Below, piece after piece: positions 5,870 through 59,617 of a stretch of 64,000 bases of DNA (positions are counted from its first letter, which is position 1; each line of letters starts with the position of its first letter). The notes below the pieces were generated by a model. It did not search any database. It saw only the letters and a program-made list of their open reading frames with translations, and was not told where the DNA came from. The position numbers were made by a program, and so were the translations under genes. Where the stretch lies: assembly GCA_963739525.1 (NCBI GenBank), contig CAVUAR010000005.1, forward strand, positions 358,915-422,914. The letters are read 5' to 3'. The stretch comes from an uncultured Actinomycetes bacterium. Its GTDB lineage: Bacteria; Actinomycetota; Thermoleophilia; Gaiellales; Gaiellaceae.

Positions 5870-7411
<1,542 letters not shown>

Positions 7412-7466
7412 CGCGACCAGTCTAGAACGCGCCGGGCTCGAGTTCCGGCCGGACGAAGGGAGACGG

Positions 7467-8283
7467 ATGCGAGTTCACATCATCAGCGACATCGAGGGTG
7501 TCGCGGGCGTGGTCAAGCCCGAGCAGGGCGACGGCGGCGAGTCGCTCTTCGAGGAGGCCCGCCGCCTCTACACGGAGGAGATCAACGCGGCGATCCGTGG
7601 CGCGTTTTCCGGCGGGCGCGACGGAGGTCGTCGTCATGGACTGCCACGGGGCGGGTAAGGGCTGGACGTTCAACTCCCTGCTGCCCGAAGCGCTCGACCC
7701 GCGCTGCGAGTGGGTCGTCCAGCGGGAGTGGACGGAGTACACCGGCTTCCTCGCGGAAGGCTGCGACGCGGCTCTCTTCGTCGGCATGCACGCGCGGGCA
7801 GGCATCGCCGACGGCGTCCTCAACCATACGATCTCGGGCTCGGACATCTACGAGCTCCGCTTCAACGGCACCGCGGTCGGCGAGACGGGAATCAACGCGG
7901 CGCTCTGCGGCACGTTCGGCTGCCCCGTGCTCCTCGTCACGGGCGACGACGCGGTCTGCCGCGAGGGCCGCGAGCTCCTCGGAGACGGACTGACGACGGT
8001 CTCGGTGAAGCAGGGGCTCGGGCGCGAGAGCGCCCGCAACATCGCGCCGCAGCGCGCCCGGGAGATCATCGAGGAAGGGGCCAAGCGGTCGCTCGGCGAC
8101 CTCGAGGCGGTGGCGCCCTACGACCCCGGGCATCCCTGCGAGATCGAGGTCGACGTGATGGGGTCGCAGATCGTCGAGGCCTACCGGTGGAGGCACGGCG
8201 TCGAGGTTCTCGACGGCCGGCGCTTCGTGTCGCGCGCCGACGACTGGTGGACTGCCTGGACGCAGTTCTGGCCGTTGCCGTGA
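7467..8283 (+). pseudogene. M55 family metallopeptidase (DppA-like D-aminopeptidase), one frame switch near 7610
   Basis: MRVHIISDIEGVAGV start (ATG 7467) in one frame. It continues in ORF 7498-8283 (VVVMDCHGAG, FVGMHARAG, GINAALCGTFGCPVLLVTGDD). Confidence 0.75.
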
Positions 8284-9246: not shown

Positions 9247-11027
9247 GTGAACCGTACGAAGCACCCGAACCTGCACACGTTCGGCCGGTTGCTCGGGTTC
9301 CTGCACCCGTACCGCTGGTCGCTGATCGTCTCGATCTTCCTGGCCGTCGGCTCGCAGGCGATCGCGATCCTGCTCGTCCGCATCACGCAGGGCGTGATCG
9401 ACACGGCGATCAAGCCGCAGGACGAGCGCATGCTCTGGATCTTCATCGGGGTCATCCTCGGGCTCGGGCTCGTCAGGTCGCTGCTCATGGTCGGGCGCAG
9501 GTTCATCTCGGGCCGCCAGGCGCTCGGAGTCGAGTACGACATGCGCAACGCGCTCTACGCGCACCTCCTCCGGCTCTCGTTCGGCTTCTACGACCGAAAC
9601 CAGACCGGGCAGCTGATGTCGCGGGCGACGGTCGACCTCCAGGCGGTGCGCTTCTTCCTCGGCTACGGGCTCATCTTCTTCTTCCAGCACGTCCTGACGA
9701 TCGTCGGCGTCACCGCGATCATGTTCTGGACGGACTGGAGGCTCGCGCTCGTCGCGCTCGCGATCACACCGATCGTCGTCGCGCTCGCATACCGGTACTC
9801 GCAGGTGTCGCACCCGATCCTCCGCGACGTGCAGCAGAAGATGGCCGACGTCGCGACCGTCGCCGAGGAGAACATCGTCGGCGTCCACGTCGTCAAGTCG
9901 TTCGCCCAGGAGACGCAGGAGCAGAAGAAGTTCCAGCGGCGCTCGGAAGCGTTGTTTCGGCAGAGCATCCGCGCGAACCGCCAGCAGTCCTTCTACGTGC
10001 CGATCCTTAGCTTCGTCCCACTGCTCGCACAGGCCGCGATCCTCCTGGTGGGCGGCTGGATGGTCGTGCACGGCAGCCTCACCATCGGCGAGTTTTTCGC
10101 CTTCAACCTCTACGTGACGATGCTGATCCTGCCGCTGCGGATGCTCGGCATGTGGATCGGCCAGTCGCAGCGAGCGACCGCCTCCGGCGAGCGCATCTTC
10201 CAGATCCTCGACGAGCCCGAGGACGATCGCCGAGAAGCCCGGTGCACCCGAGCTCCCACCTGGGCCCGGGCGCATCGAGCTTCAAGGGCGTCTCGTTCGG
10301 CTACGACCCCGAGCGGCTCGTCCTCCACGGCGTCGACCTCGAGATCGAGCCGGATCAAACGTCGCGGTCATCGGCCACACCGGTTCGGGAAAGACGACGT
10401 TGACCGCGCTCGTGCCGCGCTTCTACGACGCGACGGCAGGGCGCGTCCTGATCGACGGCGTGGACGTCCGCGACGTGACGCTCGCCTCGCTCCGCTCGCA
10501 GATCGCGGTCATCTCGCAGGATCCGTTCCTCTTCTCGACGACCGTGCGGGACAACATCGCCTTCGGCACGGCCGACGGCGACGGACGAGGAGGTCGAGTC
10601 GGCCGCGCGGCTGGCGCAGGCGCACGAGTTCATCGTCGCGCTGCCCGACGGCTACGACACCGTCATCGGCGAGCGCGGGATCACGCTCTCGGGCGGCCAG
10701 CGCCAGCGGATCGCGATCGCGCGCGCGATCGTCGCTGAACCCGCGCATCCTCATCCTCGACGACGCCACCGCGTCCGTGGACGCGACGACCGAGGCGCGG
10801 ATCCGGCTCGGCCTGCGCGAGGCGATGCACGGACGGACGACTCTGATCATCGCGCACCGGCTCTCGACGATCTCGCTCGCGGACGAGGTCGTCGTGCTCG
10901 ACCACGGCCGGATAGCGGCGCGCGGCACGCAGGCCGAGCTGGCCGAGTCGAGCCCTGTCTACCGCGAGATCTACGAGCACGGCCTGTCGACCGCGAGCTG
11001 GCCGCGCGGCTGGAGGCGACGGCGTGA
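9247..11027 (+). pseudogene. ABC exporter, fused permease/ATPase subunit 1, about 6 frame switches
   Basis: The six-helix TMD region is intact (9247-10220). The NBD is recovered from three frames: Walker [41 protein letters not shown]. Frame changes at about 10225, 10287, 10363, 10577, 10742 and 10988, a mix of +1 and -1. Confidence 0.8.
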
Positions 11028-39035: not shown

Positions 39036-39944
39036 ATGATCCTTCCCAACACGGTGATCGCAGGTGCTCCGAAGTCGGGCACGAGCTCGCTGTTCACGTG
39101 GCTCGCCGATCATCCCGAGGTCTGCGGCTCTCGCTTCAAGGAGACTCGCTACTTCCTCGACCCCGGACATGCTCTCCTCGACCCCCGCTCGAACTATCAC
39201 GATCATGGGCTGGCGGGATACGCATCCCACTTCAGCCAGTGCGAAGGCTCGAACACCAAGCTCGTCCTCGAGGCGACGCCCCATTACCTGTACCAACGCA
39301 CCGCGCTCGAGGTGCTTTCAGGCTTCGATCCCCAGCCCTCCGTCGTCTTCCTTTTGCGGAAGCCCTCGGAGCGCGCGTATTCCGAGTACCAGTTCGCACG
39401 GAACAACCGAGCAGTGATCGATCGCGATGTCACGTTTCGTGACTTCATCGAGATGGTGCGGCGCGAAGACACGTTCCTCGCAGGACGCCGACAGCTCGAA
39501 GCGGTGTTGGAGCATGGAAGGTACATCGACTTCCTCGACCGCTGGTCGGGCCGTTTTCCCCGCTCGAAGATTCACATCTTCCTCTTCGAGAACCTCCAGC
39601 GGGACAACCGCTCCTTCATGGAAGACGTGGCCGTGTCGCTCGACATCGAGCCCGCCGTCTACGGGGAGTACGATTTCCCGCTCAAGAACCTGACGTACCA
39701 GGTCAAGCATCAGGCATTGCACCGCATGCGCAGCAGGGTCGGGCGTCGCATCCCCCGTGGCCAAGCGAAGGTCCTGGTCCACAAGACGACAAGAAGGGCG
39801 TACACGGCCTTGAACATCGAGCGGACACGGCCGGCGAAGACCCCGGACGACAAGGCAGTCATCGCCGAGCTCGACACCGAGTTTGCCCCGTGGAACGAGG
39901 AGCTCGCCCGGAAGCTCGACATCGACCTTTCCCCGTGGGAATGA
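39036..39944 (+). CDS. PAPS-dependent sulfotransferase
   Basis: 5'-PSB loop GAPKSGTSSL and 3'-PB motif LLRKPSERAYSEY. 302 aa, intact. Confidence 0.8.
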   Translation: MILPNTVIAGAPKSGTSSLFTWLADHPEVCGSRFKETRYFLDPGHALLDPRSNYHDHGLAGYASHFSQCEGSNTKLVLEATPHYLYQRTALEVLSGFDPQPSVVFLLRKPSERAYSEYQFARNNRAVIDRDVTFRDFIEMVRREDTFLAGRRQLEAVLEHGRYIDFLDRWSGRFPRSKIHIFLFENLQRDNRSFMEDVAVSLDIEPAVYGEYDFPLKNLTYQVKHQALHRMRSRVGRRIPRGQAKVLVHKTTRRAYTALNIERTRPAKTPDDKAVIAELDTEFAPWNEELARKLDIDLSPWE

Positions 39945-41416
39945 CGACAGCGAACGAAGCAGCGGTAAGGGCACGGGGCGGAACCGCGCCTCAGCCTCCC
40001 GGGATTCGTTGGGACGGGCGAGTTGCGATCGAGCCGACGCCGCGCAGACTCGCGGAGGAAGTCGCCCTGCTCGGCTTCTTCTTCATCTTCTATGCCAACA
40101 TCGCGGTGCTGGCGACGCGCTTCCATGGAGTTCCGAGCTTCATCGCCTCGGGCGTCGTCCTGCTCCTCTTCATTCCTCTGGCGAGGTACCTGGTGCTCGA
40201 GCGGCAGCCTCTGGTCGTCACGCCGGTGCTCCCGCTCGTCTTCGCCTTCTTCGGAGCGCTGTTCTTGGCCGCCGCGCTCTCGAAGGACCCTGGCGTGTCG
40301 AAGAGTGCGCTCGCCACCTACCTGACCGAAGGCCTCATCCTCTATCTGATCGTCACGAACGCGGTCAGGACGACGGCTGCGCTGCGGAAGGTCGTCTGGG
40401 TGCTCATCCTCGCCGGAGCCTTCATGGGCGCGCTTTCGATCTTCCAGGAGCTCACGCACACGTATTCGAGCGACTACGGGGGGCTCGCACAGGTCGACCG
40501 CGTCGACAATGGAGGTGGCTTCAACGTCGCGCCACAGGATTCTCCCCAGAAGGTCCTGCGACCCCGGCTGTCAGGACCGCTGGGCAGCGAGAACCGCTAC
40601 GCACAGATCCTGGCCGCTGTGCTCCCACTCGCCCTCATCCGCGCGTTCAGAGAGGAAAGGAGACGTCTTCGGCTCGGAGCCTCGCTCTGCTCGCTCCTGA
40701 TCATGGGCGGCCTGCTCCTCACCTTCTCACGCGGTGCAGCGCTTGCCGTCGCGGTCACGCTCGTGGCCATGGCGCTCCTGCGCGAGCTCCCAATTCGTCA
40801 GCTGCTCGGCGCTCTGGCCGTGCTCACGCTGCTCGTCGCACTGGTCGTGCCCGACTACGTCACGCGTCTGCGCTCCCTGGAGAGCGTGACGGCACTGTCC
40901 TCGTCCCCGTCCTCCGACTCGTCGCAGCACGTCGACTCCTCGATCGCCGGACGGAAGACAGAGAACCTGGCGGCCCTGCACACGTTCCTCGGCCATCCGA
41001 TCGTCGGCGTCGGGCCCGGGGTCTACTTCAAGGAGTACTCACGCCAGACTGCGAACCAGCTCGGGCTCAGATACCTCACGAGCGAGCGCCGCGGACACAG
41101 CCTCTATCTCGAGATGGCCGCGGACACGGGGATGATCGGCCTGGGGACCTTCCTCGCGATGGTCGGCACCGCCATGGTGCTTCTTCTCAAGCAGGCCAGA
41201 CGCTGGCGCCCATACGACCGCGAACGCTCGCTGCTTGCGAGCTCGTTTCTGTTCGCGCTCTTCGGCTACCTCGCGTGCGGTGCCTTCCTCCAGCTCTCGT
41301 ATCAGCGCTACTTCTGGATCCTGCTCGCACTCGGCAGCTCCACGATCTGGGCGCTTCGCCGTGACGAAGAGAAGGGAATCCTTCGCGCTCCTCCGGAGGC
41401 GGAAGCGGCGACCTAG
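39941..41416 (+). CDS. wzy: O-antigen polymerase/ligase family membrane protein (Wzy-like)
   Basis: ATGA overlap with the sulfotransferase. About 10-12 TM helices. LLLTFSRGAALAVAV loop typical of the Wzy_C family. Confidence 0.7.
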   Translation: MTTANEAAVRARGGTAPQPPGIRWDGRVAIEPTPRRLAEEVALLGFFFIFYANIAVLATRFHGVPSFIASGVVLLLFIPLARYLVLERQPLVVTPVLPLVFAFFGALFLAAALSKDPGVSKSALATYLTEGLILYLIVTNAVRTTAALRKVVWVLILAGAFMGALSIFQELTHTYSSDYGGLAQVDRVDNGGGFNVAPQDSPQKVLRPRLSGPLGSENRYAQILAAVLPLALIRAFREERRRLRLGASLCSLLIMGGLLLTFSRGAALAVAVTLVAMALLRELPIRQLLGALAVLTLLVALVVPDYVTRLRSLESVTALSSSPSSDSSQHVDSSIAGRKTENLAALHTFLGHPIVGVGPGVYFKEYSRQTANQLGLRYLTSERRGHSLYLEMAADTGMIGLGTFLAMVGTAMVLLLKQARRWRPYDRERSLLASSFLFALFGYLACGAFLQLSYQRYFWILLALGSSTIWALRRDEEKGILRAPPEAEAAT

Positions 41417-56009: not shown

Positions 56010-56657
56010 CTACTCGCCTGCGCCCCGGAAGATCGCCGGGACGGTCAGGAGCAGGATCTTGAGGTCAAGGGCAAACGAGCGGTGCTCGATGTACTCGATG
56101 TCCAGACGAAGCCGCTCGTCGAATGTTGTGATGTTGCGGCCCTTGATCTGCCAGAGGCCGGTGATGCCCGGCGTGACCTCGAGTCGGTACGTGTGCCAGA
56201 GGCTGTACGTCGTGGGAGCAAACGACGTCGGGCGTGGCCCGACGAGTGACATCTCGCCACGGATGACGTTCACGAGCTGGGGCAGCTCATCCAGGCTCGT
56301 CTTCCGCAGGGCCTTGCCGACTCCGGTGATGCGTGGGTCGTTGGGAATCTTGAAGTCAGGTGGAGGGAGGACGTTCAGGTGACCGAGGCTGGCCTTCAGC
56401 TCTTCGGCGTTGCGAACCATTGTTCGAAACTTGAACATCCGGAAGCGACGCCCGTCCTTGCCCGTGCGCTCCTGAGCGATGACGACAGGCCCCGGTGAAT
56501 CGAGTCGTACCGCGAGCGCACACAGGAGAAGGACCGGCACCACGACCGGGAGGAGCCAGATGCAGACCGCCAGGTCCAAGGTGCGCTTTGCGACCAGGTA
56601 GCTCCGATCGACGCGGGCGGTCCGGGCAAGTCCGATCATGACCTCTTCCGTGATCAC
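56010..56657 (-). CDS. undecaprenyl-phosphate sugar phosphotransferase (bacterial sugar transferase, small WbaP/EpsL type)
   Basis: One TM helix, then ERTGKDGRRFRMFKFRTM and DELPQLVNVIRGEMSLVGPRP. Confidence 0.85.
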   Translation of the reverse strand: MITEEVMIGLARTARVDRSYLVAKRTLDLAVCIWLLPVVVPVLLLCALAVRLDSPGPVVIAQERTGKDGRRFRMFKFRTMVRNAEELKASLGHLNVLPPPDFKIPNDPRITGVGKALRKTSLDELPQLVNVIRGEMSLVGPRPTSFAPTTYSLWHTYRLEVTPGITGLWQIKGRNITTFDERLRLDIEYIEHRSFALDLKILLLTVPAIFRGAGE

Positions 56658-57256
56658 GCGGCCGGCGTGCTCCGATGCTCGGGGGCGACCGGTGTCGGCG
56701 CAGGGCGATTGGCCGTGAGCGCGCCAAGGAGTGCCCCGCTCGTCATGCCGTCATCGGGGAACACCGCCGATGAGACCTCCGACCGTCCGCTCTCTCCGAG
56801 CAGCCTCGACAGCGGCTCGTGGAGCCGGTCGAGGAGAGCCTCCACCATCGTCCGGTCACACTCGGGCAGCAGCAGGTAGACGCCGGTCCCGTCGATCCAC
56901 ACACGGTCGACGCGTCGAAGGAGCGAGCTCACTCCGTAGGCGAGGTCGCGAACGGAGCTCCACTTGTTCTCGATCTCACGGCGAGAGGAGATACGGATGA
57001 GCGCGAAGTGGTGCCCGAACCTTCGGCTGCGATCGAGCTCCGACTGGAGCTCCTCCGACGGACTCCACCGCCGAGAGACGAGCTCGCTACCGGGTCGCCG
57101 TTCGTTCCCGCCCCACCTGAACGGTCCGACGAAGATCGCGAGGCGAGTGCGCAGCGACCTCGAATAAAGGCCGTGCGCATGCGAGCGGGAGCCGTTTCCG
57201 TTCCTTGCGGTCAGCCCTTCTGGGCTTCTTTCGTCTTCTCCTACAAACCTCAACAC
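56654..57256 (-). CDS. degenerate GGDEF-like domain protein
   Basis: GTG 57256 lies 6 nt after AAGGAGG. RSRRFGHHFALIRIS...LLRRVDRVWIDGTGVYLLLPECD follows the diguanylate-cyclase fold pattern, but DGTGV replaces GG(D/E)EF. Confidence 0.5.
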   Translation of the reverse strand: MLRFVGEDERSPEGLTARNGNGSRSHAHGLYSRSLRTRLAIFVGPFRWGGNERRPGSELVSRRWSPSEELQSELDRSRRFGHHFALIRISSRREIENKWSSVRDLAYGVSSLLRRVDRVWIDGTGVYLLLPECDRTMVEALLDRLHEPLSRLLGESGRSEVSSAVFPDDGMTSGALLGALTANRPAPTPVAPEHRSTPAA

Positions 57257-57338
57257 GACTTGCCTCCTTGGCGTTGAACTCTTTCGATCGCTGCATGCGC
57301 GCCTTCTGGCGCACGCAGCACGAGTCAGCCAAGGAGAG

Positions 57339-58412
57339 CTAGCCGGGGCGCTTGAGCTGGAAAGCGGGAGCGGGCCCGCGGAGTGGAGTCGTCCTCATCG
57401 AAAGACGACTTCCGAGGAGCTGGCAGACGAAGAGACCGAACAGCGCGACAAGCGCGCCGAGCGCGGCGCCGCCTCCCGAGCCGCCGCTGGATCCGCCGAA
57501 CACGCCTCCGGCTCCCCCGAACCCGAATGTTGTCGGGAACCAGGGGACCCTGTGTTCGAACGGAGCAGGCTGAGGCGCAGGTTGCGGAGTACCGGATTTC
57601 TCCGTATTCGATGGATCCGACGAAGCATTGGATCCGGAACCGCCGCCGCTGCCCGGAGCAGAGCTCGTGCCGCCGAGGAGATTGAGGAGGACCGGGGAGG
57701 GCGACAGGCCTGCGTTTCGATCGTCTCCGACGACCGGTGTCGGCACTGGATCTTGAGACGAATCTCCCGCGAGACCACCTCCCGTTTCGGGGATCCCCGG
57801 TGCCGGCGTGGTTTCAGGGGGTGGGTCGAGGGGCGGCGTGACAACCGGCGGGGTCGTCGTCGGGTCGCCGGACGAGGTCGTCGGGTCGCCGGACGAGGTC
57901 GTCGGGTCGCCGGACGAGGTCGTCGGGTCGCCGGACGAGGTCGTCGGGTCGCCGGACGAGGTCGTCGGGTCGCCGGACGAGGTCGTCGGGTCGCCGGACG
58001 AGGTCGTCGGGTCGCCGGACGAGGTCGTCGGGTCGCCGGACGAGGTCGTCGGGTCGCCGGACGAGGTCGTCGGGTCGCCGGACGAGGTCGTGTCGCCCGG
58101 CGAGGTGCCCGGATCGAGGACTTCGACAGTGTCGCCGGTTACAACTCCCAGGTCGTCGGCACGCGACTCGGCGACAAAGGCGAAGAGCCAGACGAGCGCG
58201 GCTGCGGTGGCCACGAGGAGCAACCTCCTCGTCCGCGCTCCGGCAGCGCAAGACACGGCGCCACGCCCGGCGGCGCTGTGCCATCTCGTCCCCGACTCCG
58301 ACTCCCTCAACGCGGCGTCTCCCTCCCCGCGGATGATGCATGACTGGCTGACCGACTTCGTTTCCCCACCAAACGTCGTTCCGACACGAACCAAAGGTGC
58401 AGACTTACCCAT
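57339..58412 (-). CDS. surface-anchored Ser/Thr/Pro/Gly-rich repeat protein
   Basis: Signal peptide RTRRLLLVATAAALVWLFAFVAESRA (alternative GTG start at 58256). 11 x SSGDPTT, a Pro/Thr-rich linker and a Gly-rich tract. C-terminal TM AALGALVALFGLFVCQLL followed by a basic tail. Confidence 0.65.
   Translation of the reverse strand: MGKSAPLVRVGTTFGGETKSVSQSCIIRGEGDAALRESESGTRWHSAAGRGAVSCAAGARTRRLLLVATAAALVWLFAFVAESRADDLGVVTGDTVEVLDPGTSPGDTTSSGDPTTSSGDPTTSSGDPTTSSGDPTTSSGDPTTSSGDPTTSSGDPTTSSGDPTTSSGDPTTSSGDPTTSSGDPTTTPPVVTPPLDPPPETTPAPGIPETGGGLAGDSSQDPVPTPVVGDDRNAGLSPSPVLLNLLGGTSSAPGSGGGSGSNASSDPSNTEKSGTPQPAPQPAPFEHRVPWFPTTFGFGGAGGVFGGSSGGSGGGAALGALVALFGLFVCQLLGSRLSMRTTPLRGPAPAFQLKRPG
57856..58086 (-). 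repeat. perfect tandem repeat, 11 x 21 bp (GTCGTCGGGTCGCCGGACGAG on the plus strand)
   Basis: Counted directly. All 11 units are identical and in frame, encoding SSGDPTT heptads on the minus strand. Confidence 0.95.
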
Positions 58413-58837
58413 GGTTACCAAAGTGTCAAATCTGGATAAGTCTTTTCCCAGCACGCCCGTGTCGAACACGGCCGGAGAAGGTCGATGCGCGAAGCCGGAC
58501 CCAGGCCTTGGTGCACGGAAGGCGAGCTGGCCTGAGCGGATCTAGACGCTCAAGTTCCACTTGAGCTTTACTGCTCGCGAGGTGTGGGCAAAACTCACTC
58601 CCATGCCGCGTCCCCGCTCGGTTTCCAGCCTCGAGTGTGACTGGAGGGTTCCCGCGAAGCCTCCGGCTCTTTCTGAGCATCCGCGGTCAGAGGCCCAACC
58701 GCGCTAGAATCGTCGCTCCGCGGCGGCGGCATTCTTGGCCGTCGGGCGGAGCAGGGGATTCGAAGCAGGACGTTGCGGCGAGGAATCACACCTAGAGAGC
58801 GCCACGCTCAATCGAGCGCGAGGCGCGTCGGCGAGCG

Positions 58838-59617
58838 ATGAGATCGATCATCGCCCGCCTTCGTCGATCTGCCGCGCCCGACCCGGTCAATCCGGAGCCG
58901 AGATCAGCGCTGTACGAGCAGGCCCGGCGGCTCGGGATCGAAGGCCGGTCGAAGATGAATCGCCGGCAGCTCGAGGCTGCCGTCGCATCTGCGCAGCGGA
59001 GGCGCCGCTCGTCGAGGTCGCTCGCCCGCTTCCGCCTCGCCCTTCTGTCGGCCCTCGCGCTGCTGCCACGACGCGGCGCTTTCCGATGGAGCTCCGTCCG
59101 TGGCGCGGCGAGCTTCGCGACCCTTGTTTCCCTTTTGCGCACCCCAGGCCCCCTCAGGGCGGTAATCCTTTCTGTCGCCGCCGTGGCAACGGGAGTCCTC
59201 GGCCTCGTCGTCGCCTACGCAGTCGTACCTCAGGAAGGCGTCGCCGCACAGGGGAATGGAAGCACGTTGCGGCTCGTCACGGTCACCGGCCCCGGAGGAA
59301 CGACGACCCTTGCGGTCACGAGGACGAAGCAGGGCAAGACGAGGCTCGTCCCAGTCCATGTTCTTCGAACCGTGACCGGCCCGGGTGGAGTGAGAACGCT
59401 GTCGATAGCCGTCACCGGCCCGACGGTGACCGACAAGGACGTCATCACGCAGATTCACCAGCACACCGAGACTCAGGTCGTGCAGAGCACCCAGACCGAG
59501 GTGGTGACGGAAACGCAACCCGTGACCGTCGTCGTCACCCAGCCGGAGACGGTTGTCGTCACCGAAACCGTCACCGTGGTAGAGACCACGACGGTCGTCG
59601 TCCCCCCTGGCCCCTGA
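58838..59617 (+). CDS. Rho_N-like domain / TM / Val-Thr-rich extracellular protein
   Basis: LYEQARRLGIEGRSKMNRRQLEAAV (Rho-N/SAP-like helix pair). TM AVILSVAAVATGVLGLVVAYAVV. The tail is VTVTGPGG / TVTGPGG / VTGPTV repeats, then TETQPVTVVVTQPETVVVTETVTVVETTTVVV. Confidence 0.55.
   Translation: MRSIIARLRRSAAPDPVNPEPRSALYEQARRLGIEGRSKMNRRQLEAAVASAQRRRRSSRSLARFRLALLSALALLPRRGAFRWSSVRGAASFATLVSLLRTPGPLRAVILSVAAVATGVLGLVVAYAVVPQEGVAAQGNGSTLRLVTVTGPGGTTTLAVTRTKQGKTRLVPVHVLRTVTGPGGVRTLSIAVTGPTVTDKDVITQIHQHTETQVVQSTQTEVVTETQPVTVVVTQPETVVVTETVTVVETTTVVVPPGP

What the first reader, a model, noticed from the sequence alone, without database searches (positions are those of the whole stretch)
57856..58086. 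Eleven perfectly identical 21-bp repeats encoding SSGDPTT heptads in the first gene of the kinase-rich operon
Perfect nucleotide identity across 231 bp implies very recent expansion or ongoing slippage or recombination, giving length-variable surface protein. It could also be an assembly collapse or expansion.

Each heptad offers one Asp and four hydroxyl residues. These are the chemistries used by O-glycosylation, by Ser/Thr phosphorylation (HprK-like and APH-fold kinases are downstream) and by ATP-grasp omega-ester formation in repeat-core graspetide precursors.

The protein has an N-terminal signal peptide, a Gly-rich tract and a single C-terminal TM anchor. It is a mucin-like stalk on the cell surface.
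Basis: partly seen in the sequence, partly recalled or inferred. Interest (0 to 1): 0.6.

Follow-up and report, generated by a model that had tools for sequence, protein, structure and literature searches.

The report
Length-variable stalk of a membrane protein
The eleven perfect 21-base repeats are real: they are the newest round of repeat turnover in the disordered, acidic outer stalk of a membrane-anchored protein from a small undescribed family of soil actinobacteria, and that protein is tied to the degenerate GGDEF-fold (nucleotide-signalling type) gene next to it, not to the kinases further downstream.

Summary
Observation confirmed. A perfect period-21 run lies at 57856-58091 (236 bp, 11.2 copies, 100% identity). 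It is in frame in a minus-strand gene and encodes SSGDPTT x11. It is the only long perfect short-period array in this 2.67 Mb genome.

The gene (57339-58310) encodes an N-terminal signal/anchor helix, a ~230-residue S/T/P/G/D-rich region (net charge -24), a Gly-rich tract, one C-terminal membrane helix and a 23-residue tail ending L-x-R-P-G.

It belongs to a small family without a Pfam or NCBIfam model: 47 clusters among 1.84 billion representatives, from Thermoleophilia. Every close orthologue has a tandem array at the same site. Units differ (15-27 bp and longer, all multiples of 3) and are 77-100% identical. Two 93%-identical proteins differ by exactly one unit.

Selection therefore keeps composition, charge and frame, not sequence.

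The link to kinases or ATP-grasp is not supported:
- two genomes keep only this gene plus the next one, a degenerate GGDEF-fold protein that retains RxxD;
- the kinase module occurs elsewhere without it;
- the ATP-grasp is not of the graspetide type.

A conserved hairpin hides gene 2's ribosome-binding site just after gene 1's stop codon.

The parts
57856..58091 (-). Perfect tandem array, 21 bp x 11.2, encoding SSGDPTT x11 (residues 76-152 of the 323-aa product)
57339..58310 (-). Gene 1, the repeat protein. The likely start is TTG 58310 (GGGAGGGAG 8 nt upstream; it aligns with the start of the orthologue P0001), giving 323 aa. GTG 58256 (305 aa) is the alternative. The longer ORF to 58469 is not coding, because it runs through the conserved promoter-like DNA.
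58170..58226 (-). N-terminal hydrophobic helix (signal peptide or signal anchor), preceded by RTRR
   Evidence: Kyte-Doolittle segment; AF2 helix
58155..58181 (-). Family-conserved AFVAESRAD motif at the end of the signal helix. It is a candidate signal-peptidase site (SRA|D). Differences between loci here fall mainly at third codon positions.
57468..57527 (-). Juxtamembrane Gly-rich tract FGFGGAGGVFGGSSGGSGGG (GG.FGGS conserved)
57411..57467 (-). C-terminal transmembrane helix
57342..57410 (-). Conserved 23-residue cytoplasmic tail SRLSMRTTPLRGPAPAFQLKRPG. L-x-R-P-G at the very C-terminus is invariant across 13 loci and is the family signature.
58401..58429 (-). Promoter-like motif TTGACA-N15-GTAAGTCT. 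It is conserved in seven loci within otherwise unalignable upstream DNA and occurs once in this genome.
   Evidence: function inferred
57257..57338 (-). Gene 1-gene 2 spacer hairpin. CUCCUUGGC (57328-57336, starting 3 nt after the stop) pairs with GCCAAGGAG (57264-57272), the Shine-Dalgarno of gene 2.
56654..57256 (-). Gene 2: soluble degenerate GGDEF-fold protein that keeps RxxD (RRVD) at I-site spacing. It is the constant partner of gene 1.

Best explanation
The array is a genuine in-frame variable-number tandem repeat. It sits in the extracytoplasmic, intrinsically disordered, polyanionic Ser/Thr/Pro/Gly-rich stalk of a bitopic membrane protein.

The protein belongs to a small uncharacterised Thermoleophilia family defined by its ends rather than its middle:
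- a signal helix ending AFVAESRAD;
- a Gly-rich juxtamembrane tract;
- one C-terminal membrane helix;
- a cytoplasmic tail ending L-x-R-P-G.

The middle is remade again and again, by replication slippage or unequal recombination, at the same place in each lineage. Selection keeps reading frame, acidity, lack of Lys/Arg, hydroxyl and proline content and rough length, but not sequence. Eleven identical units are simply the youngest expansion seen.

Functionally the protein is paired with the next gene, a soluble degenerate GGDEF-fold protein that retains the RxxD site. Translation of that gene appears to be coupled to gene 1 through an RNA hairpin that hides its ribosome-binding site.

Inferred, not shown:
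- the tail docks this putative c-di-GMP-type receptor at the membrane;
- where the polysaccharide operon follows, the pair works with it;
- the stalk serves as a cell-envelope-spanning anionic brush, possibly O-glycosylated.
For: Shown:
- Perfect array, in frame, unique in the genome.
- Family and conserved ends.
- Tandem arrays at the same site in orthologues, with different units, all multiples of 3: 24 bp x6.5 at 97%, 27 x5.1 at 97%, 27 x3.9 at 87%, 15 x13.5 at 77%, 15 x12.1 at 81%, 18 x15.6 at 92%, 72 x2.8 at 89%, 84 x2.3 at 87%.
- Copy-number difference between 93%-identical proteins.
- Acidic ectodomains in 23 members: net -15 to -30, K+R 1-3%.
- Two hydrophobic helices with basic residues on the cytoplasmic sides.
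- The AF2 model has only helices 5-35, 188-194 and 263-286. The rest is coil, with pLDDT below 50 through the repeat array and much of the linker.
- A gene-1-type protein sits directly upstream of gene 2 in all 7 genome loci found with gene 2 as the query, and in the metagenome contigs.
- L024 and L025 carry only the pair.
- Spacer hairpin: -44.3 kcal/mol, z -4.57. 85% of cells are paired against 33-51% for slid controls, and the anti-SD:SD helix is 94% paired with one compensatory pair.
- Gene 2 fold: the top Foldseek hits are GGDEF domains. The profile alignment to DgcR puts RRVD on RKSD and DG.xVY on GGEEF.
Against: - No reads could be laid on the array, so the exact copy number and the perfect identity could be affected by assembly or polishing.
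- Topology, signal-peptide cleavage and disorder are predictions only.
- No evidence for a tail-gene 2 contact beyond gene order and the coupling hairpin.
- The hairpin structure was derived from the same eight related sequences on which it was then counted.
- c-di-GMP binding by gene 2 is inferred from one motif and a model of moderate confidence (pLDDT 60).
- A distant, basic-ectodomain branch of the family is not followed by gene 2, so the tail cannot be only a gene 2 dock.
- The role of the stalk itself is unknown.
Confidence: 0.7

Rival explanations
1. Dedicated glycan acceptor. The Thr/Ser of the repeats are O-glycosylated outside the membrane with the glycan built by the cluster. This would make a membrane-anchored proteoglycan or mucin-like layer, comparable to S-layer glycoprotein loci or to PEP-CTERM proteins of exopolysaccharide loci.
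For: - Each close orthologue's unit holds Thr/Ser next to Asp/Glu and Pro.
- In most loci the gene heads an operon that starts with a priming phosphoglycosyl transferase.
- The cluster holds Wzx and a Wzy_C protein whose best NCBIfam hit is 'putative O-glycosylation ligase, exosortase A system-associated' (69 bits).
- An unrelated PEP-CTERM protein (P0010) carries almost the same heptads.
- PEP-CTERM and LPXTG proteins are enriched in Ser/Thr and poor in basic residues (PMC1569441).
Against: - The Wzy_C hit is far below its cut-off of 188 bits, and the protein may simply be the polymerase.
- No GT39 (PMT) in six genomes with the family.
- L024/L025 keep the protein without any glycan genes nearby.
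- Distant members have only 13-14% S+T in the ectodomain.
- No experimental data.
Confidence: 0.3
2. The heptads are modified in the cytoplasm by the operon's kinases, nucleotidyltransferase or ATP-grasp, either by phosphorylation or by graspetide-like ester rings, before or instead of export.
For: - Asp plus four hydroxyls per heptad.
- HprK-related and NTP_transf_5-like genes are neighbours. In lasso-peptide clusters such a pair phosphorylates, and then glycosylates, a peptide's C-terminal Ser (PMC8498205).
- From my own knowledge, serine-rich repeat glycoproteins of Gram-positive cocci show that cytoplasmic modification before export is possible.
Against: - Predicted topology puts the repeats outside.
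- Units differ between orthologues.
- Gene 1 occurs without these enzymes (L024, L025), and the enzymes occur without gene 1.
- The ATP-grasp matches CPS-like/LysX/RimK models and no graspetide maturase model.
- The Pfam/NCBIfam hits to NTP_transf_5 and HprK_rel_B are far below their cut-offs.
- The protein ends in Gly, not Ser.
Confidence: 0.07
3. Assembly or polishing artefact. The array length, or its perfect identity, is produced by the assembler and not by the organism.
For: - A 236-bp perfect array is longer than usual short reads and k-mers.
- Polishing with multi-mapping reads can homogenise units.
- Reads could not be consulted.
- Two related long-contig MAGs show frameshifts inside their arrays, so such regions are error-prone.
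Against: - The frame is kept through the array, and the conserved C-terminus follows in frame.
- A decayed unit flanks the array.
- Contigs of 46-813 kb without N suggest long reads that span it.
- Independent assemblies from other samples carry arrays of 4-16 units at the same site.
Confidence: 0.1

Closest known systems
Variable-number tandem repeats in bacterial surface proteins (e.g. staphylococcal Ser-Asp repeat proteins, streptococcal alpha-C/Rib; reviewed in PMC3899988)
   Same: In-frame, near-perfect units in an exposed low-complexity region. Copy number differs between close relatives. The region acts as a stalk or spacer.
   Different: No folded ligand-binding head: the mature N-terminus before the array is only about 24 residues. 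The anchor is a membrane helix plus a conserved tail rather than LPXTG. The family is unrelated in sequence.
PEP-CTERM / exosortase proteins of exopolysaccharide loci (PMC1569441)
   Same: Signal peptide; Ser/Thr-rich, Lys/Arg-poor low-complexity body; membrane helix at the extreme C-terminus; placement beside exopolysaccharide genes. One PEP-CTERM protein (P0010) even carries near-identical heptads.
   Different: No PEP motif and no hit to any PEP-CTERM model. No exosortase found in the genome (genome 68% complete). The helix is followed by a 23-residue conserved tail instead of a short basic cluster.
Pro/Thr-rich O-mannosylated secreted proteins and PT linkers of Actinomycetota (from my own knowledge; not tested)
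   Same: Composition (Pro, Thr, Asp) and phylum.
   Different: No GT39 protein O-mannosyltransferase detected in six genomes carrying the family.
Repeat-core graspetide precursors (plesiocin/thuringinin type; from my own knowledge)
   Same: Repeated units containing both hydroxyl and carboxyl side chains, and an ATP-grasp gene in the same operon.
   Different: A protein of ~320 aa with an export signal and a membrane anchor. Units are not conserved. The ATP-grasp is not of the maturase type and lies seven genes away. Gene 1 persists where the ATP-grasp is absent.
PelD-type degenerate GGDEF c-di-GMP receptors of polysaccharide systems (for gene 2; from my own knowledge)
   Same: GGDEF fold with a lost GG(D/E)EF but a retained RxxD, encoded with polysaccharide genes.
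   Different: Gene 2 is soluble and small (200 aa). If it is held at the membrane at all, the attachment would have to come from another protein, possibly the gene 1 tail. Nucleotide binding is untested.

Membership tests
In-frame VNTR of a surface protein | Head-to-tail units of high identity, with unit length a multiple of 3 | tested here: met
   21 bp x 11.2 at 100%. All orthologue periods are multiples of 3.
In-frame VNTR of a surface protein | Copy number differs between close relatives | tested here: inconclusive
   Met within the family: P0005 and P0006 are 93% identical and differ by one unit. No second strain of this species was available.
In-frame VNTR of a surface protein | Repeat region is exposed outside the cytoplasm | not testable with these tools
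   Prediction only: two hydrophobic helices and the positive-inside rule; AF2 helices.
Graspetide precursor / ATP-grasp maturase pair | ATP-grasp belongs to the graspetide maturase families | tested here: not met
   NCBIfam hits are CPS-like PRK12767, LysX, RimK, cyanophycin synthetase and PylC, with no maturase model. The nearest PDB entry is 2pn1.
Graspetide precursor / ATP-grasp maturase pair | Conserved core motif with fixed Thr/Ser-to-Asp/Glu spacing across orthologues | tested here: not met
   Units seen: SSGDPTT, TTTPPAD, DDGTTTPAP, PPPEDTTxT, PPVTD, PPVVET.
Graspetide precursor / ATP-grasp maturase pair | Precursor and ligase co-occur | tested here: not met
   L024 and L025 have gene 1 without an ATP-grasp within 8 kb. 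ATP-grasp/kinase modules occur without gene 1.
PEP-CTERM / exosortase sorting | PEP motif, then a membrane helix, then a basic cluster at the C-terminus, recognised by the TIGR02595-type models | tested here: not met
   No NCBIfam hit at E<=0.1 for the window protein or P0008, whereas P0010 is recognised.
PEP-CTERM / exosortase sorting | Exosortase (PF09721) in the genome | tested here: inconclusive
   None found in the own genome, which is only 68.5% complete.
LPXTG sortase substrates | LPXTG motif before the C-terminal helix | tested here: not met
   The sequence before the helix is FGFGGAGGVFGGSSGGSGGG, with no LPXTG.
Pmt-dependent O-mannosylated actinobacterial proteins | GT39 protein O-mannosyltransferase present | tested here: not met
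   PF02366 was not found in the own genome or in five relatives' genomes, while the control genomes gave hits. Completeness of the five relatives is not given.
Mucin-like (PTS) domain | Tandem repeats rich in Pro, Thr and Ser | tested here: met
   Ectodomain S+T 33%, P 16%, G 18%.
Mucin-like (PTS) domain | Dense O-glycosylation of the repeats | not testable with these tools
   Needs mass spectrometry or glycan staining.
Degenerate GGDEF c-di-GMP receptor (gene 2) | GGDEF fold | tested here: met
   Thirteen of the 14 best Foldseek hits, including the top 13, are GGDEF domains (prob 0.99-1.00, best E 4e-4). The model has pLDDT 60 and a core at residues 57-182. Profile hit to 6zxm at E 0.004.
Degenerate GGDEF c-di-GMP receptor (gene 2) | RxxD I-site five residues before the GG(D/E)EF position, with the active-site motif lost | tested here: met
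   RRVD aligns to RKSD of DgcR, and DG(T/P)xVY to GGEEF. RRVDRVWI is invariant in 7 sequences.
Degenerate GGDEF c-di-GMP receptor (gene 2) | Binds c-di-GMP | not testable with these tools
   Needs a binding assay.

The most novel reading that the evidence does not exclude
Gene 1 and gene 2 form a previously undescribed two-gene envelope module of Thermoleophilia. A membrane protein has an invariant cytoplasmic tail (...L-x-R-P-G-COOH) that recruits a soluble degenerate-GGDEF nucleotide receptor, made in step with it through a stop-codon-proximal anti-SD hairpin. Intracellular second-messenger state would then control the display, shedding (for example by cleavage at the Gly-rich juxtamembrane tract) or glycan loading of a fast-evolving polyanionic surface stalk.
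Probability: 0.15. Interest if true: 0.65.

Novelty: new variant of a known kind. Interest (0 to 1): 0.4.

Why it matters
Perfect in-frame repeats in surface proteins are a well-known source of rapid variation, so the array by itself is ordinary.

What is new is the setting:
- a rare family, limited to Thermoleophilia as far as source genomes carry names, with no database model;
- conserved only at its membrane-proximal ends;
- always paired with a degenerate GGDEF-fold gene through what looks like a translational-coupling hairpin;
- in most lineages placed at the head of an unusual polysaccharide operon.

The work gives a concrete, testable handle on cell-envelope biology of uncultured soil Gaiellales-like bacteria. 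It also removes a tempting but unsupported link between the repeats and the kinase and ATP-grasp genes.

Tried and rejected
- Exact double-unit scan of the metagenome contigs: no hit.
- First metagenome scan with the C-terminal profile: only spurious pattern hits.
- Pfam and NCBIfam on the protein: nothing.
- PDB profile search with the C-terminal module: only Gly-linker noise.
- Rfam on 56.5-59.5 kb: nothing.
- The simple sigma-70 scan did not call the conserved upstream motif, because its second box (TAAGTC/GTAAGTCT) is non-canonical.
- RNAalifold on the 11-sequence spacer alignment gave no useful consensus, because of misalignment of the three distant loci. I therefore counted a structure taken from the single-sequence folds of the eight close loci.
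- Long N-terminal extension (start at 58469 or ATG 58412): rejected. The apparent 'FDTL..GKS' protein similarity is the conserved TTGACA...GTAAGTCT DNA.
- Tat signal: rejected, because the RR pair is not conserved in orthologues.
- Phase variation (on/off): rejected, because all unit lengths are multiples of 3.
- Exosortase-type sorting, LPXTG and Pmt mannosylation: not supported.
Full report
**1. The observation**

Tandem Repeats Finder reports a single array at 57856-58091: period 21, 11.2 copies, 100% matches, no indels. A direct check gives a perfect period-21 run of 236 bases.

On the minus strand the units are TCG TCC GGC GAC CCG ACG ACC, which reads SSGDPTT, eleven times. The array is preceded by a decayed copy (TSPGDTT, with one codon missing) and followed by TPPVVTPP.

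Chance cannot give this: about 1e-117 for 215 matching bases at this base composition. In the whole 2.67 Mb assembly (11 contigs of 46-813 kb, no N, 68.5% complete) it is the only long perfect short-period array. The runner-up is 24 bp x 6.0 at 96%.

The exact copy number, and whether polishing helped to make the identity perfect, therefore remain unverified. An exact scan of the metagenome contigs for the double unit found no second assembly of this allele.

**2. The gene**

The ORF is on the minus strand and ends at 57339.

Upstream DNA from seven loci aligns only at a motif CC.GATTTGACA-N16-GGTAAGTCTGC. In the window this is 58401-58429, and it occurs once in the genome. The weak 'protein' similarity in the long 5' extension is this DNA motif, so the extension is not coding.

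The best start is TTG 58310. It has GGGAGGGAG 8 nt upstream and aligns with the start of P0001. This gives 323 residues. GTG 58256 is the alternative.

Differences between loci in the AFVAESRAD codons fall mainly at third positions, which argues for a real, selected protein.

Hydropathy finds two hydrophobic segments. One is N-terminal and preceded by RTRR. One is C-terminal and followed by SRLSMR...R...KR. By the positive-inside rule the ~230 residues between them lie outside the cytoplasm.

That stretch is 33% Ser+Thr, 18% Gly, 16% Pro and 12% Asp+Glu. It holds three basic residues and has a net charge of -24. An AlphaFold2 model built on ten family members has only three helices (5-35, 188-194, 263-286). 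The rest is coil, with pLDDT below 50 through the repeat array and much of the linker.

**3. The family**

Pfam and NCBIfam give no hit. A word-seeded search found nine relatives.

A full HMMER pass with a profile of the last 111 residues, over 1.84 billion cluster representatives, found only 47 clusters at E<=1e-3 (21 at E<=1e-10). Nearly all matches end at the protein's last residue.

All share the signal helix and the membrane helix plus tail ending L-x-R-P-G. Those with acidic ectodomains end the signal helix in (E/Q)(S/A)RA(D/E) and mostly carry a Gly-rich tract before the membrane helix.

Twenty-three have acidic P/T/S/D/E-rich ectodomains (net -15 to -30, K+R 1-3%). A distant branch has basic Ala/Arg/Pro-rich ectodomains.

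Named source genomes are:
- Gaiellaceae and 'uncultured Actinomycetes' MAGs for the acidic branch;
- a Solirubrobacteraceae MAG for the basic branch.

Both families belong to the class Thermoleophilia.

The family is patchy. It was found in 1 of 401 sampled genomes of the phylum, the own genome only, and in 7 of 301 genomes of the order. Within the own genus, one genome has it with a quite different repeat unit and another (93% complete) gave no match.

**4. Repeat turnover**

Every close orthologue carries a tandem array at the same position, just after the conserved VLDP(D/E).SS.

| Locus | Period x copies | Identity |
|---|---|---|
| L017 | 24 bp x 6.5 | 97% |
| L010 | 27 x 5.1 | 97% |
| L016 | 27 x 3.9 | 87% |
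| L009 | 15 x 13.5 | 77% |
| L018 | 15 x 12.1 (60 x 3.0) | 81% (96%) |
| L020 | 18 x 15.6 | 92% |
| L015 | 72 x 2.8 | 89% |
| L022 | 84 x 2.3 | 87% |

All periods are multiples of three, so these are length switches and not on/off switches.

The peptide units differ: TTTPPAD, DDGTTTPAP, PPPEDTTxT, PPVTD, PPVVET, PPVEQVD. Within the window's sub-branch they share an acidic residue followed by Thr-Thr and prolines.

P0005 and P0006 are 93% identical outside the array and differ by exactly one nine-residue unit.

More distant members (L021, L023-L025) have only short or decayed arrays, yet the same composition. Perfect repetition is therefore a by-product of turnover. What is kept is frame, acidity, absence of Lys/Arg, Pro and hydroxyl content, and a length of roughly 150-240 residues.

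**5. What the gene is coupled to**

In the long contigs the order is the same as in the window:
- gene 1;
- gene 2;
- a small priming phosphoglycosyl transferase;
- an NTP_transf_5-like protein;
- an HprK/FomB-like kinase;
- a 200-aa protein;
- an APH-like kinase;
- a dTMP-kinase-like P-loop protein;
- an ATP-grasp;
- a polysaccharide deacetylase;
- a 423-aa protein.

A scan of 185,579 species genomes with a gene 2 profile found seven loci. All seven have a gene-1-type protein directly upstream.

Two of these, L024 and L025, come from different MAGs. They have only gene 1 plus gene 2, set among unrelated metabolic genes: PLP enzymes, ornithine cyclodeaminase, an aldo-keto reductase and tryptophan dioxygenase.

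Conversely, three genomes from other families of the phylum hold the HprK-like kinase with the P-loop kinase and an ATP-grasp or the nucleotidyltransferase, but no gene 1, 2 or 3.

The stable partnership is therefore gene 1 with gene 2, not gene 1 with the kinases.

**6. Gene 2 and the spacer**

Gene 2 is soluble. Its model has pLDDT 60 with a core at residues 57-182. It matches GGDEF domains at the top of a PDB fold search: 5m3c, 4urg, 6khu and SiaD 7e6g, with probability 1.0. Its profile hits DgcR (6zxm) at E 0.004.

In that alignment the invariant RRVD lies on the I-site RKSD, and DG(T/P)xVY lies on GGEEF. This is a degenerate GGDEF domain that has lost the catalytic motif and kept RxxD at the canonical spacing.

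The 82-85 nt spacer between the two genes folds strongly: -44.3 kcal/mol in the window, z -4.57 against shuffles.

In eight loci the strand that begins three bases after the gene 1 stop codon (CUCCUUGGC in the window) pairs with the Shine-Dalgarno region of gene 2 (GCCAAGGAG). Across the whole structure 85% of cells are paired, against 33-51% when partners are slid. The anti-SD:SD helix is 94% paired and has one position with CG, GC and AU variants.

The sample is small and related, and the structure was derived from these same sequences, so this is suggestive rather than proven. The simplest reading is translational coupling: a ribosome finishing gene 1 opens the site for gene 2.

**7.

Graspetide reading:
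- The ATP-grasp matches carbamoyl-phosphate-synthase-like PRK12767, LysX, RimK and L-amino-acid ligase types, and no maturase model.
- The units are not conserved.
- The protein is exported and anchored.
- Gene 1 persists without the ATP-grasp.

Kinase reading:
- HprK-type kinases with NTP_transf_5-type transferases do modify peptides in lasso-peptide clusters, at a C-terminal Ser (PMC8498205).
- Here the hits to those families are far below their cut-offs, the protein ends in Gly, and the coupling argument of section 5 applies.
- Cytoplasmic modification before export is not impossible in principle. Serine-rich repeat glycoproteins do this (my own knowledge). So I keep this rival at a low but non-zero level.

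O-glycosylation outside the cell:
- It fits the composition and the neighbourhood: a priming transferase, Wzx, and a Wzy_C protein at 39890-41416 whose best model is a putative O-glycosylation ligase at 69 bits against a cut-off of 188.
- No GT39 mannosyltransferase was found in six carrier genomes.
- The stand-alone pairs in L024/L025 show that the protein has a role without that operon.

**8. Comparison with known systems**

The array is a textbook in-frame VNTR of a surface protein.

The protein resembles PEP-CTERM and LPXTG cargo in composition and in having its anchor at the extreme C-terminus (PMC1569441). It fails the defining motifs and models, and no exosortase was found.

The long, invariant tail after the helix, the obligate degenerate-GGDEF partner and the coupling hairpin are, as far as I could find, undescribed.

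**9. Verdict**

The kinase/ATP-grasp substrate part is not.

The array itself is ordinary. The family and its pairing with gene 2 are a modestly novel lead. Interest 0.4.

Noticed in passing
window 57257-57338 (-): The spacer between the repeat gene and gene 2 forms a conserved hairpin (-44.3 kcal/mol, z -4.57). It pairs the bases just after the stop codon with gene 2's Shine-Dalgarno and shows some compensatory change across eight loci. This is likely translational coupling.
   Followed up: yes
window 56654-57256 (-): Gene 2 is a GGDEF-fold protein that has lost GG(D/E)EF but keeps an invariant RRVD exactly at the I-site position (aligned to RKSD of DgcR, 6zxm).
   Followed up: partly
window 58401-58429 (-): TTGACA-N15-GTAAGTCT is conserved in seven loci within otherwise unalignable upstream DNA and is unique in the genome. 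It is a probable promoter or operator of the operon, with a non-canonical second box.
   Followed up: partly
window 58549-58565: The inverted repeat CTCAAGT-TCC-ACTTGAG lies in the divergent intergenic region. A related motif (CCTCAAGGTGA...TGAG) aligns in the other loci. It could be an operator or part of the divergent gene's promoter.
   Followed up: no
L024 6846-8459; L025 4560-6192: Two MAGs carry the repeat-protein gene and gene 2 as a stand-alone pair among amino-acid metabolism genes, without the sugar transferase/kinase operon.
   Followed up: yes
L032 (G109), L033 (G213), L034 (G095): Genomes of other actinobacterial families carry the HprK-like kinase next to the dTMP-kinase-like P-loop protein, with an ATP-grasp or the NTase-like protein, but without genes 1-3. 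This is a separable kinase sub-module.
   Followed up: partly
L015/L019 about 9300-10264; L020 about 6900-7913: In two long-contig MAGs the orthologous gene is split by frameshifts inside or beside the repeat array. An intact near-relative (P0013) exists. These could be sequencing errors in repeats or real inactivation.
   Followed up: partly
P0010 (metagenome protein, 269 aa): An unrelated PEP-CTERM (PEPxxWA-CTERM) protein carries almost the same heptads (TSSGDPT / TSTGGPT). This looks like convergent use of the motif in exopolysaccharide-associated sorted proteins.
   Followed up: partly
window 58838-59617 (+); L015 8010-8552 (-): The divergently transcribed neighbour is conserved next to the repeat gene in related MAGs. 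It has a weak Rho_N-like N-terminus, membrane helices, VTGPGG repeats and an alternating Val/Thr tail.
   Followed up: partly
L026 230-3045; L027: A distant branch of the family (Solirubrobacteraceae type) has a basic Ala/Arg/Pro-rich ectodomain and the tail ...SLEL.PWRSA....RLERPG. It is followed not by gene 2 but by a secreted Asn/Gln/Ser/Thr-rich repeat protein with a recurring NAxNxNxPVxxAGGDI motif.
   Followed up: partly
own genome C2:53891-54034: This is the second-best short-period array of the genome: 24 bp x 6.0 at 96%, with further 24/48-bp arrays just after it.
   Followed up: no
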